A stretch of 64,000 nucleotides of DNA, from NCBI RefSeq assembly GCF_053078305.1, contig NZ_CP166879.1; one strand, 5' to 3'. Below are positions 49,401 to 52,400 of this stretch, piece after piece. Every line of letters starts with the position of its first letter. Within the stretch, counting starts at the first letter, position 1. The position numbers are program-made.

Positions 49401-52400
49401 TCTGGTATGTGCCGCCGGAATGTCGGTTTGTGGCGGAACGCTGACCGGTGTTTATTTCGGGGATTTGCGCGGTTATCCCTGGCATTCACTGGATGACGCA
49501 TTTCCGCCTGATATGGAGGCAGTCGTGCTGATTGTTCAGTATGGTGACCAACAGGAACTGCGCATCGGCCATATGGGGTATGAAGGCTTTTTTATTGATG
49601 AAGAAACCGGAGCCTGCCTTGAAGATGAGGACGGACAGGTGACGCACTGGTGCCATATTTCAGCTTTACCGGAATGACGGGAGGTGAATGCGTGAGAAGT
49701 TATATTGATAATGAAAAACTGAAGACAATCAGCGACTGTCTTAGCTTGCTGGCAAAAATAAAAGAAACCATTGAAGAGATTAAATTTCAGCTTGAATACG
49801 CACCCTGTGGTGATGATACATGGCGTAACTCTGCCAGAAAAGCACTGGCTGTCTTTCAGAAACAACGCCGGACTGTTGAATACCGCCTTGCTGTATTACG
49901 CCAGGAGGAAAAGGAAAGAAATATAAGATGTCACGAGCGCGTTAATAACTTCCTTGTTCGTGAATTAAAAGAACGTGTGCCGGAGTCGGTATTTTTTGAG
50001 TGTGAGGCTGTTGCCCGTAGCAAAGCACTGGAAACTGATTAAACAGGCAGGTGAATGATGAGTATTGAATTAAGATCGTCTTATGAATATCGTAAAATTC
50101 TCATCGCCGGAGGCATGAAACCGGAAGATGCAGAAAAAATTGTTTCTTTTATGGATAAAGAATGTGACAAACGGGATATGCCAGAAATTATTATGGATGA
50201 CATGATTCTGCATTCAGCCGTAGCGTTAAGCCCGTTATGGATTGTGCATTCTCTTGCTGAAATTGCCAAAGGCACCGATAAACAGGCAGCTGTTGCTGCC
50301 CTTCAGACGCTTAATGAAATGCGTATATCTCCACGCCCGACATTAATACATATGATTCTCTCCAGTATGGAGGATAAAGCAAATGAATAGTCTACCCGCT
50401 GGATGGGCGCGGCCACTAATGGCCAGGAAGCATCATTTTTTTAAAACAGGCGAAAATATCAGTATATGTGGACGGTGGTTATATCTGGCTCATAATCGCG
50501 AGCCGGATACATTTGAAAGCCCTGATGACTGTGCCGAATGCCGCAGAAGAGTGAATAAGGAGAAAGATAATGGACAATAGTTCTCTGTTGTTCTGGTGCT
50601 TATATATCACATCCTTTTTCGGCGCATTTGTTATTACCCGGTGGTTATGTCGAAAAATCATCTGCTTTTTTGATAAAAGACATCCGGTTGAACGGGCGGC
50701 TGATGCGCTCATTCAGCAGGCCATTGTGTTATATAGCGGTGAATTTTTCTGCCGGATAACAACCAGAGATGGCTGGCACATAATGATTATTCCGCCAACA
50801 CACCATGCCCGGTGGGATGAGGCAGAAAAGGCTTTCCATGTCCGTAAAAAGGTAAATACGGTATGAGAGGAAAACTGATATCCGCCATTCATGTGGCAAA
50901 GCGCGAGCTTGCCCTGGATGATGAGACCTACACATTCGTACTACTGGCAGCCACCGGCAAAACCAGTTGCCGGGATATGTCACCCGGTGAGTTATCCCGC
51001 GTGCTGGATGTTTTCAAAAAACGCGGTTTTAAAGTGCGTCAGAAACCGGTTAACCGGGCCTTAAAACCGGGTACGGTGACCGCCAGAATTCGCGCCATCT
51101 GGAAAGTGATGCACCGGCAGGGCTTTATCTCTGATGGTGCGGAAACCGCTCTTAACCGCTGGGTGAAATCGCAGACGGCCGCGCAGAACGGCGGCGAAGG
51201 TGTGGCAAACTGGCAGTGGCTGGAGCAACACCCCGCCCTGGCCTCAGATGTGCTGGAGCGTCTCAAGCGATGGCACCGCCGCAAAATGCTGGCCGCGATG
51301 GGAATGCCCGAACGCACGCTGATGGGGTATGACGCCGTTTGCAGGCAGTATGAAAAATCACTTCCCCGTTAACCCCAAATCCCGCCACAACGCGGGATTT
51401 TTATTTTAAACTTACCGGGAACGCGAGAACCGGAGGCTGATATGGCAGAAACTCAGATGAGCATGTTTGGTGGTGACAGTGAGCAACTGCACGCCCTTAT
51501 CGACCGCCTTGATGACATCCCTGATGATGTTCTCAAAAAGAACTGGCCGCGGACCCTGTCAGAACTGGTTGAAGTCACCGGCGCAGAACTTCAGCGTCAG
51601 GGGATTGAGCCGGTACTGGCCGGTAAACTGGCACGCAAGGTGGCTGCGGCTCAGGCAGCCTATATGGGCGGACGGGGTTATTACCTGCCGGTCGGGGAAT
51701 CTCTCTTTGCCGAGCTGCGAAACAATGAGATATTTTCGCGCTGGGACCGGGGCGAGAAGATTGAATCCCTTCGCCGCCATTACCGGATGTCAGAAACCCA
51801 GATTTATACCGTCATACGTGAACAGCGCCGTCTGCATCTGGCAAGAACGCAACCGCCACTTTTCTGATATTCCGCAAAGCCTGCCGCCTCTCCTTCACCG
51901 TTACGCTGACTCAGAGAACATCATGAGACAGCGTAACAATGCCAAAACTCCCCGCACCACTGCGTAAAAAGCTGATTGCCCTTGTTCTGGCCGGTGCCGG
52001 GACGTTCACGATTGCCACGCATTACACCGGTTACTGGGAAGGGAAAGAAAACTCCACGTATATCGATCCCACCGGTACACCCACCATCTGTTACGGCCAT
52101 ACCGGCCCGGATGTGAAACCGGGTATGACCCTGACAGATGAAGAATGCCTGGAACTACTGGAAAAGGACATGAAATGGGCCTTTGCGGCCATTGATCGGC
52201 GTGTTCAGGTGCCGCTTACCCGTGGTCAGACGGTGGCGCTGGCTTCGTGGATCTTCTGGGCCGGTGAAACGAACTTTCGCAACTCCACGCTTCTGCGCCT
52301 GATCAATGCCGGGCAGATGCCCGCGTCCTGTAAGCAGTATATCCGCTGGATTTATTCAAAGGGGGTGAAACTTCCCGGCCTTGAGGCCCGCCGTTCGGCG

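What the first reader, a model, noticed from the sequence alone, without database searches (positions are those of the whole stretch)
51379..51407. Intrinsic terminator separating early operon from the mor-type activator
A GC hairpin plus T-tract lies exactly between gemA and mor, matching the early-to-middle transcription boundary expected for a Mu-like cascade. No separate C-type late activator gene is evident between mor and the lysis genes, so a single Mor/C-family protein may drive late expression.
Basis: partly seen in the sequence, partly recalled or inferred. Interest (0 to 1): 0.35.

Follow-up and report, generated by a model that had tools for sequence, protein, structure and literature searches.

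The report
Terminator before a prophage's sole late activator
A real, conserved stop signal for transcription sits between the early genes and the only late-gene activator of a Mu-like E. coli prophage; this is an ordinary element in a slightly unusual place, and it probably limits how early the activator is made.

Summary
Window 51377-51400 folds into a 9-bp stem with a 6-nt loop (-13.5 kcal/mol, z about -4 to -5). It is followed by UUUUUAUUUU, starts 4 nt after the gemA stop codon, and ends 41 nt before the next ATG. The prophage is an Sp18-type Mu-like element of E. coli.

The downstream gene is the only Mor/C-family gene in the window and in two complete close relatives. It is C-type, not Mor-type: 96.7 bits to Mu C against 40.7 to Mor.

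In Mu, mor overlaps gemA, and the early terminator lies after mor, inside the middle promoter Pm. Here the terminator precedes the activator, so the boundary differs from Mu. A single activator directly upstream of lys has already been reported for other Mu-like phages.

My best reading is a leaky Rho-independent terminator that ends the early operon and throttles the C-type activator. A -10-like TAAACT abutting the U-tract may add a promoter.

The stem core ATCCCGC/GCGGGAT is invariant in seven lineages whose activators are only 47-88% identical. Copies flank cargo and defence genes inserted at this junction. A second, DNA-level role is therefore possible but unproven.

Interest is modest.

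The parts
50863..51372 (+). gemA (gp16 family), the last gene of the early operon
   Evidence: ORF. Pfam GemA PF06252, E 6e-29. Annotated as gp16 family protein in E. coli relatives.
51377..51385 (+). 5' arm of the hairpin, AAATCCCGC
   Evidence: Fold. The core ATCCCGC is invariant in 7 lineages.
51386..51391 (+). Loop CACAAC
   Evidence: Loop sequence and length (4-9 nt) vary among relatives.
51392..51400 (+). 3' arm of the hairpin, GCGGGATTT
51398..51407 (+). U-tract TTTTTATTTT (9 of 10 T); its first three T are paired in the extended stem
51407..51412 (+). -10-like hexamer TAAACT abutting the U-tract; a candidate promoter element, unproven
   Evidence: Read from the sequence. TATACT, TATAAT or TATATT sit at the same place in diverged relatives. 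No -35 element, and no hit in the sigma-70 scan.
51433..51437 (+). Shine-Dalgarno GGAGG of the activator gene
   Evidence: Conserved in E. coli relatives, whereas the 20 nt upstream of it differ between allelic types.
51442..51867 (+). The sole Mor/C-family gene; a C-type late activator
   Evidence: Pfam Mor, E 3e-32. PHROG 532, late transcriptional activator. PDB phmmer gives 96.7 bits to Mu C and 40.7 to Mor. It is the only family member found.
51864..51907 (+). Candidate C-dependent late promoter of lys: box CTGATATTCCGCAAAGCCTGCC plus the -10 hexamer TACGCT at 51902-51907
   Evidence: The 22-nt block recurs only upstream of the protease/scaffold gene. AA(T/A)CC sits 25-26 nt upstream of a TAnnCT hexamer in 7 lineages, including Mu Plys.
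51900..51937 (+). Stem-loop joining the lys -10 region to the lys start codon
   Evidence: -21.5 kcal/mol, z = -4.5. Stem-loops of different sequence sit at the same place in five other lineages.
51939..52439 (+). Endolysin (phage lysozyme), the first late gene
   Evidence: Pfam Phage_lysozyme, E 6e-37.

Best explanation
The element is a Rho-independent (intrinsic) terminator that ends the rightward early operon 4 nt after gemA. Behind it lies the prophage's only Mor/C-family gene, a C-type late activator. That gene is followed, with no terminator, by a Plys-like promoter and the lysis and morphogenesis genes.

Shown: the anatomy, the stability of the fold, its directionality, its conservation, and the absence of a second activator.

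Inferred mechanism: most early transcripts stop at the U-tract. A minority read through and provide a small, delayed supply of the activator. A -10-only promoter (TAAACT) that abuts the U-tract may add to this. Once the activator accumulates, it turns on the late promoters.

On this view the terminator stands in for the Mor tier of phage Mu as the delay between the early and late phases.
For: - Fold: 9-bp stem, 6-nt loop, -13.5 kcal/mol, z -4.1 to -4.9, followed by 9 U in 10 nt. It is as stable as the Mu hairpin plus T7 at 9176-9200 (-12.2 kcal/mol), which GenBank annotates as a predicted terminator inside Pm.
- Direction: a U-tail exists only on the + strand.
- Position: between two co-directional ORFs, just after a stop codon.
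- Conservation: 9 of the 10 distinct short-gap E. coli-type intergenic variants keep a perfect stem. The hairpin persists in lineages whose activator is 47-67% identical (L014, L048, L049, L052, L092).
- Pairing is maintained through change: the outer pairs go from AAA/UUU to CCC/GGG in L049, there is a G.U pair in L047, and a different hairpin (AGCCCCGC/GCGGGGCU) follows gemA in the L060 group.
- Operon boundary: cargo genes, mostly on the opposite strand, are inserted exactly here in many relatives.
- Activator as a distal early gene: in other clades gemA and mor overlap by 8 or 11 nt, which fits read-through expression.
- Only one Mor/C gene is present, and it is C-type.
Against: - No transcript data exist for this prophage. 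Sp18 is not induced by mitomycin C (PMC2669165). Termination and its efficiency are therefore inferred.
- The GC core of the stem is short (5-6 bp), and an A interrupts the U-run.
- In L049 and L011 the palindrome is kept but the U-tract is poor. Something other than termination may therefore be conserved.
- The stem sequence, not just the pairing, is invariant across lineages with 47-88% identical activators. That is more than a terminator needs.
- In L048, L092 and L014 the activator gene has terminators on both sides. This argues for its own promoter rather than pure read-through.
Confidence: 0.6

Rival explanations
1. Composite terminator and promoter with positive feedback. The hairpin DNA also carries a binding site for the C-type activator (AATCCCGC in the 5' arm), and the TAAACT hexamer is the -10 of an activator-dependent promoter. 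A trickle of read-through primes the system, and the activator then boosts its own gene. This parallels Mu, where the terminator-like hairpin overlaps the Mor site of Pm.
For: - The core ATCCCGC/GCGGGAT is invariant in 7 lineages, while loops and flanks diverge.
- CCCCAAATCCCGCCAC matches 12 of 16 positions of the block upstream of the protease/scaffold gene (CCTGAAATCCCGCAAA). It also resembles the Mu Plys box ATAATCCCGCACC.
- A -10-like hexamer follows the U-tract within 3-8 nt in at least 5 lineages: TAAACT, TATACT twice, TATAAT and TATATT.
- The activator gene is bracketed by terminators in L048, L092 and L014.
- When cargo is inserted, the copy next to the activator gene usually keeps the hairpin plus the hexamer.
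- In Mu the hairpin 9176-9196 overlaps the Mor dyad 9173-9188 (PMC4287176).
Against: - The geometry does not match. AATCC lies 27-29 nt upstream of the hexamer here, against 25-26 nt in all late promoters examined and 25 nt in Mu Pm (my counts).
- The flank upstream of the hairpin, where the distal half-site should be, is not conserved.
- L047 has lost the 5' arm upstream of the activator gene.
- The 9-mer is not clearly enriched: 4 found against 1 expected, and two of the four are the arms themselves.
- AT-rich sequence after a U-tract can mimic a -10 by composition.
Confidence: 0.2
2. A conserved module-boundary sequence. The hairpin persists mainly because it is the homologous crossover point at which Mu-like phages swap early and late modules and pick up cargo genes (a moron-style terminator scar). 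It would have little regulatory role for the activator.
For: - Two hairpin copies flank independent insertions in L008-10, L034, L014-16 and L046/47, and one junction falls inside the loop (L047).
- The 20 nt just after AAACTT switch abruptly between the two E. coli allelic types.
- Cargo includes defence genes: TIR-TM, BnzAB and PDC-M14B.
Against: - Loops and the A/U extensions have diverged while the core is kept. This points to long-term selection rather than recent transfer of one segment.
- A crossover site does not need a U-tract or directionality.
- This role is compatible with terminator function rather than an alternative to it.
Confidence: 0.1
3. A double-stranded DNA palindrome that serves as an operator for a phage or host protein, with no real termination.
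For: - The sequence of the arms is invariant.
- The palindrome is retained in L049 and L011 although the U-tract is weak.
Against: - The spacing between the arms varies from 4 to 9 nt, which a dimer bound to duplex DNA would tolerate poorly.
- The G.U pair in L047 preserves RNA pairing but not DNA symmetry.
- Most lineages, including the window, have a good U-tract.
Confidence: 0.07
4. A chance hairpin with no function.
For: Terminator-like patterns are frequent in this region (29 found against 16.9 expected).
Against: - Fold z-score of -4 to -5.
- Intergenic position.
- Conservation across lineages with otherwise unrelated flanks.
Confidence: 0.03

Closest known systems
Phage Mu early terminator region (t9.2 in the older literature, from my own knowledge) overlapping the middle promoter Pm
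   Same: Both are an A-tract/GC-stem/U-tract hairpin of similar stability (-12.2 against -13.5 kcal/mol). Both close the early operon and sit just upstream of the operon that encodes the C activator.
   Different: In Mu the hairpin lies after mor, which overlaps gemA. It is embedded in a Mor-dependent promoter whose 16-bp dyad is centred at -43.5 (PMC4390567, PMC4287176). Here there is no mor gene, the hairpin directly follows gemA, genes 18-20 are absent, and no site with Mu's geometry could be demonstrated.
Mu C protein and its late promoters (Plys, PI, PP, Pmom)
   Same: - The downstream gene is C-type (96.7 bits to 9l0x, late transcription activator C).
- It lies directly upstream of lys, as C does in Mu.
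- The lys-upstream region has AA(A/T)CC 25-26 nt before a TAnnCT hexamer, as in Mu Plys (TAATCCCGC ... TAGACT).
- The protein ends in QPPLF and starts with QMSMF, resembling the clamp-binding motifs reported for the family (PMC12867686).
   Different: - Identity to C is only 40%.
- There is no terminator between the activator gene and lys.
- No activator-DNA binding has been tested for this phage.
Single-activator Mu-like phages (Mannheimia 3927AP2, phiMhaMu2, Haemophilus SuMu)
   Same: They have one mor-family gene with lys immediately downstream and no middle genes such as C (PMC4553209). The L017 group in my sample has this layout, with cargo genes between gemA and mor.
   Different: Those reports do not describe a terminator between gemA and the activator gene. 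In the L017 group I saw no AATCCCGC hairpin.
Moron-type insertions bounded by terminators in temperate phages (HK97/lambda concept, from my own knowledge)
   Same: Extra genes are inserted at an operon boundary, often on the opposite strand, and are bracketed by terminator hairpins.
   Different: Here both bracketing hairpins are copies of the resident early terminator. The window itself carries no insertion.

Membership tests
Rho-independent (intrinsic) terminator | GC-rich stem-loop more stable than shuffled sequence | tested here: met
   9-bp stem with 5 G-C pairs, -13.5 kcal/mol, z -4.1 and -4.9, 0 of 200 shuffles as stable.
Rho-independent (intrinsic) terminator | U-rich tract immediately 3' of the stem, on the transcribed strand only | tested here: met
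   UUUUUAUUUU follows GCGGGA. The minus-strand tail is GGGGTTAACG.
Rho-independent (intrinsic) terminator | Location just downstream of a stop codon, in the direction of the operon | tested here: met
   It starts 4 nt after the gemA stop. All early ORFs are on the + strand.
Rho-independent (intrinsic) terminator | Pairing maintained in relatives through compensatory change | tested here: inconclusive
   The outer pairs change from AAA/UUU to CCC/GGG (L049) and from AU to GC (L060 group), and L047 has a G.U pair. The core never varies, so it says nothing either way. L035 has one mismatch.
Rho-independent (intrinsic) terminator | RNA 3' ends at the U-tract in vivo or in vitro | not testable with these tools
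   No transcript data were found. A literature search for the Sakai locus tags gave nothing.
Mu Pm-type composite (terminator hairpin overlapping an activator-dependent promoter) | A 16-bp imperfect dyad centred at -43.5 from the transcription start, with a -10 hexamer and no -35 | tested here: not met
   With TAAACT as the -10, the AATCC motif lies 29 nt upstream (27-29 in relatives), against 25 in Pm and 25-26 in late promoters. The would-be distal half-site is not conserved. The -10-like hexamer and the lack of a -35 are present.
Mu Pm-type composite (terminator hairpin overlapping an activator-dependent promoter) | A separate early-encoded activator (Mor) that acts on it | tested here: not met
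   Only one Mor/C gene is present, and it lies downstream of the hairpin.
[quoted passage not shown] | Mor domain (PF08765) covering the protein, about 130-140 aa | tested here: met
   E 2.8e-32, residues 34-140 of 141. PHROG 532.
[quoted passage not shown] | C subtype rather than Mor subtype | tested here: met
   96.7 bits to Mu C against 40.7 bits to Mor, and 40% against 31% identity. Its position directly upstream of lys matches C in Mu.
[quoted passage not shown] | Activates -35-less late promoters by binding upstream of them | not testable with these tools
   There are only candidate sites: a 22-nt block upstream of lys and of the protease/scaffold gene.

The most novel reading that the evidence does not exclude
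The hairpin is a dual-use element. As RNA it terminates early transcripts. As DNA its AATCCCGC arm is recognised by the phage's single C-type activator, which drives a -10-only promoter (TAAACT) abutting the U-tract. The result is a leak-primed, self-amplifying switch that replaces the Mor-to-C two-step of phage Mu. The double constraint would explain why the stem sequence is frozen across lineages whose proteins are about 50% identical.
Probability: 0.2. Interest if true: 0.55.

Novelty: new member of a known kind. Interest (0 to 1): 0.3.

Why it matters
The Mu transcription cascade (early, then Mor, then C, then late) is the textbook model, but most Mu-like prophages in my sample, including this widespread E. 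coli/STEC type, encode only one Mor/C activator.

Where the early terminator sits relative to that gene decides how the early-to-late delay is produced. It sits before the gene here, after it in Mu and some other clades, and on both sides in a few lineages.

If the terminator is leaky, it is the timer. If it also carries an activator site, it is a bistable switch. Either answer would tell us how these common prophages of pathogenic E. coli commit to lysis.

The same junction is a landing pad for defence genes. Its transcriptional insulation therefore also matters for how such cargo is expressed from the prophage.

Tried and rejected
1. Second Mor/C gene. I ran phmmer with the window protein, and a profile HMM built from 16 family members including Mu Mor and C, against six-frame ORFs of the window, complete Sp18 (L001) and a second complete relative (L098). 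Each had one hit, and the control found both genes in Mu. The hypothesis is rejected.

2. GTDB genome scan with the single protein. No confirmed locus. The 16-sequence alignment was too diverse for the locus finder. An 8-sequence alignment worked on IMG/VR.

3. Known RNA families. An Rfam scan of 50800-52300 gave only two sub-threshold chance hits.

4. A sigma-70 promoter between the hairpin and the ATG. The scan found none. By hand I found no consistent -35 in any lineage.

5. Hairpin as a full Mor/C dyad with Mu geometry.
   - In the L004-type allele a TGTAAT hexamer would put the hairpin centre at -43.5. The window allele has no T at all in that stretch, so this cannot be general.
   - The 5' arm as a late-type box is 1-3 bp out of register.

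6. Enrichment of AAATCCCGC. Four copies against about one expected, two of them the arms themselves, so not convincing. AAANCCNGCC gave 10 against 2.3, all on the + strand, but I derived that pattern from the data.

7. Searching for PP- and Pmom-type promoters with the lys/I block. No further copies.

8. Literature on transcripts of Sp18 or on t9.2. Nothing was held.

Full report
**What is there.** Window 51373-51412 reads CCCC AAATCCCGC CACAAC GCGGGATTT TTATTTTAAACT.
- As RNA it folds into a 9-bp stem with a 6-nt loop, at -13.5 kcal/mol. The z-score is -4.1 on 51 nt and -4.9 on 40 nt, and none of 200 shuffles folds as well.
- GCGGGA is followed by UUUUUAUUUU.
- The reverse strand folds equally well, because the sequence is a palindrome, but it has no T-run.
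- The hairpin starts 4 nt after the stop codon of an ORF with a GemA domain (50863-51372). It ends 41 nt before the ATG of an ORF with a Mor domain (51442-51867). That ORF is followed 71 nt later by a phage lysozyme (51939-52439).
- The simple terminator pattern is common in this region (29 hits against 16.9 expected in 16 kb). The case rests on the fold statistics, the position and the conservation, not on the pattern match.

**Context.** The window carries a Mu-like prophage of the Sp18 type.
- Window 42279-64000 is about 97% identical to Sp18 of E. coli O157:H7 Sakai. The junction occurs in 230 of 5426 complete E. coli genomes.
- Sp18 is considered intact but is not induced by mitomycin C (PMC2669165). 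I found no transcript data for it.

**One activator, and it is C-type.**
- phmmer with the window protein, and a profile built from 16 family members, find exactly one Mor/C gene in the window, in complete Sp18 and in a second complete relative. The same profile finds both Mor (6e-40) and C (8e-57) in Mu.
- The protein scores 96.7 bits to Mu C and 40.7 bits to Mor among solved structures. Identity is 40% to C and 31% to Mor.
- It begins with QMSMF and ends with QPPLF, which resemble the clamp-binding motifs just reported for this family (PMC12867686).

**Comparison with Mu.**
- In Mu, the gemA stop overlaps the mor start (8784 and 8781), so mor is an early gene.
- A hairpin with T7 (9176-9200) follows mor, and GenBank annotates it as a predicted terminator inside Pm (9163-9233).
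- I fixed the Pm start at 9224, because only that value puts a G at -57 and an A at -54 as stated in PMC4390567.
- The Mor dyad (-51 to -36; PMC4287176) is then AGTAAAGCCGGTTAAT at 9173-9188. It overlaps the 5' arm and loop of the hairpin.
- The Mu boundary is therefore after mor. In the window the equivalent hairpin is in front of the sole activator, and mor and genes 18-20 are missing.
- The statement that the position matches a Mu-like cascade is thus imprecise.
- One activator with lys directly downstream has been reported for Mannheimia and Haemophilus Mu-like phages (PMC4553209).
- Among 80 related loci from IMG/VR, only two show any trace of a second copy within 2.5 kb.

**Relatives**. 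Three layouts occur.
- *Overlap.* gemA and the activator gene overlap by 8 or 11 nt, as in Mu, often with a canonical terminator after the activator gene.
- *Hairpin in a 70-95 nt gap.* This is the window type.
  - It is found in E. coli, where 9 of 10 distinct short-gap variants have a perfect stem and one has a single mismatch.
  - It is also found in lineages whose activator is 47-67% identical (L048, L049, L052, L092).
- *Insertions of 0.5-2.2 kb at the junction.* These are frequently flanked by two copies of the hairpin (L008-10, L034, L014-16, L046/47).
  - The inserted genes are mostly on the opposite strand.
  - They include PADLOC hits to TIR-TM, BnzA/BnzB and PDC-M14B.

**Conservation of the stem.**
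- Pairing is kept through change in the outer pairs: AAA/UUU becomes CCC/GGG in L049, and L047 has a G.U pair.
- The core ATCCCGC/GCGGGAT never varies in seven lineages, while the loops (4-9 nt) and the flanks do.
- That is more conservation than a terminator needs.
- In L049 and L011 the palindrome is kept with a poor U-tract.

**How the activator might be transcribed.** Two routes are open.
- *Read-through.* This fits the family, since the activator is a distal early gene wherever it overlaps gemA. It also fits the modest 5-6 bp GC core of the stem.
- *A separate promoter.* Three observations point this way.
  - A -10-like hexamer follows the U-tract within 3-8 nt in at least five lineages: TAAACT here, TATACT twice, TATAAT and TATATT.
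  - In L048, L092 and L014 the gene has terminators on both sides.
  - No -35 exists.
- I tested whether the 5' arm could be an activator box.
  - It matches 12 of 16 positions of the block upstream of the protease/scaffold gene, and it resembles the Mu Plys box.
  - However, AATCC lies 27-29 nt from the hexamer, against 25-26 nt in every late promoter examined and 25 nt in Pm.
  - The upstream flank is not conserved, and L047 lacks the arm.
- I therefore keep the dual-use model as a minority possibility.

**Downstream support for a single-activator cascade.**
- A 22-nt block, CTGA(T/A)AT(T/C)CCGCAAA(G/A)CC(T/C)GCC, occurs only upstream of lys and upstream of the protease/scaffold gene (window 51864-51885 and 59789-59810).
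- In each case it lies a fixed distance from TACGCT or TATGCT.
- In seven lineages, including Mu Plys, AA(T/A)CC lies 25-26 nt before a TAnnCT hexamer upstream of lys.
- This is consistent with direct activation of the late promoters by the C-type protein.

**Verdict.** The element is most likely an ordinary intrinsic terminator placed before, rather than after, the sole late activator. It acts as the delay between the early and late phases. Its frozen stem sequence and its duplication around cargo are unexplained extras. Novelty is low and interest is modest.

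Noticed in passing
window 51900-51937: A strong stem-loop, GTTACGCTG...CAGCGTAAC (-21.5 kcal/mol, z = -4.5), ends 1 nt before the lys ATG. Its 5' arm contains the candidate late -10 hexamer TACGCT. Transcripts arriving from the activator gene would contain the whole hairpin and occlude the lys start. Transcripts started at the late promoter (about 51914) would lack the 5' arm. This resembles the translational control of the phage T4 lysozyme gene e (from my own knowledge). Five other lineages have stem-loops of different sequence at the same place.
   Followed up: partly
relatives L008-L010, L014-L017, L034, L046, L047, L055, L059, L060 and others, at the junction equivalent to window 51373-51441: The gemA-activator junction is a hot spot for inserted cargo of 0.5-2.2 kb. 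The cargo is mostly on the opposite strand and is often flanked by two copies of the hairpin. It includes PADLOC hits to TIR-TM (1e-58), BnzB (3e-67), BnzA and PDC-M14B, plus a family of small secreted proteins found in both orientations. The window itself has no insertion.
   Followed up: partly
window 51864-51885 and 59789-59810: A 22-nt block, CTGA(T/A)AT(T/C)CCGCAAA(G/A)CC(T/C)GCC, is shared by the regions upstream of lys and of the protease/scaffold gene and occurs nowhere else in the prophage. It is the best candidate for the activator's target. Upstream of the protease gene the TATGCT hexamer (59827-59832) ends only 6 nt before the ATG (59839), so that mRNA would be leaderless or the start codon is mis-called.
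   Followed up: partly
L001 40481-40512 (Sp18 of Sakai, beyond the window's right end); same in L098 at 39464: A second hairpin has the same 5' arm: AAATCCCGCC GGTCATGATATGGCT GGCGGGA. It has no U-tract and sits just after the 2-kb DUF6645 gene near the com/mom end of the prophage.
   Followed up: no
window 41069-42279: The repressor/immunity region at the left end of the prophage has no nucleotide match to Sp18 of Sakai or to the second relative, while the rest is about 97% identical. The window prophage therefore appears to carry a different immunity type.
   Followed up: no
window 44243-44272: A 13-bp stem palindrome, AAATAACC...GGTTATTT, lies in the short gap between the transposase A and B genes. 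It scores as terminator-like only on the minus strand.
   Followed up: no
window 51413-51432 versus L004-L007 at the same place: The 20 nt between AAACTT and the Shine-Dalgarno sequence switch completely between two E. coli allelic types. The window has ACCGGGAACGCGAGAACC, with no T at all. The other type has GCCCTGTGTAATGATGACC, which resembles the CCTGTGATGAAT stretch of Mu Pm. Hairpin, U-tract and Shine-Dalgarno are identical in both.
   Followed up: partly
window 51442-51867 (protein): The activator starts with ..TQMSMF.. and ends with ..QPPLF. These are close to the N-terminal Qx[D/E][L/M]F and C-terminal QPDLF clamp-binding motifs reported for the Mor/MuC family (PMC12867686; sequence).
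   Followed up: no
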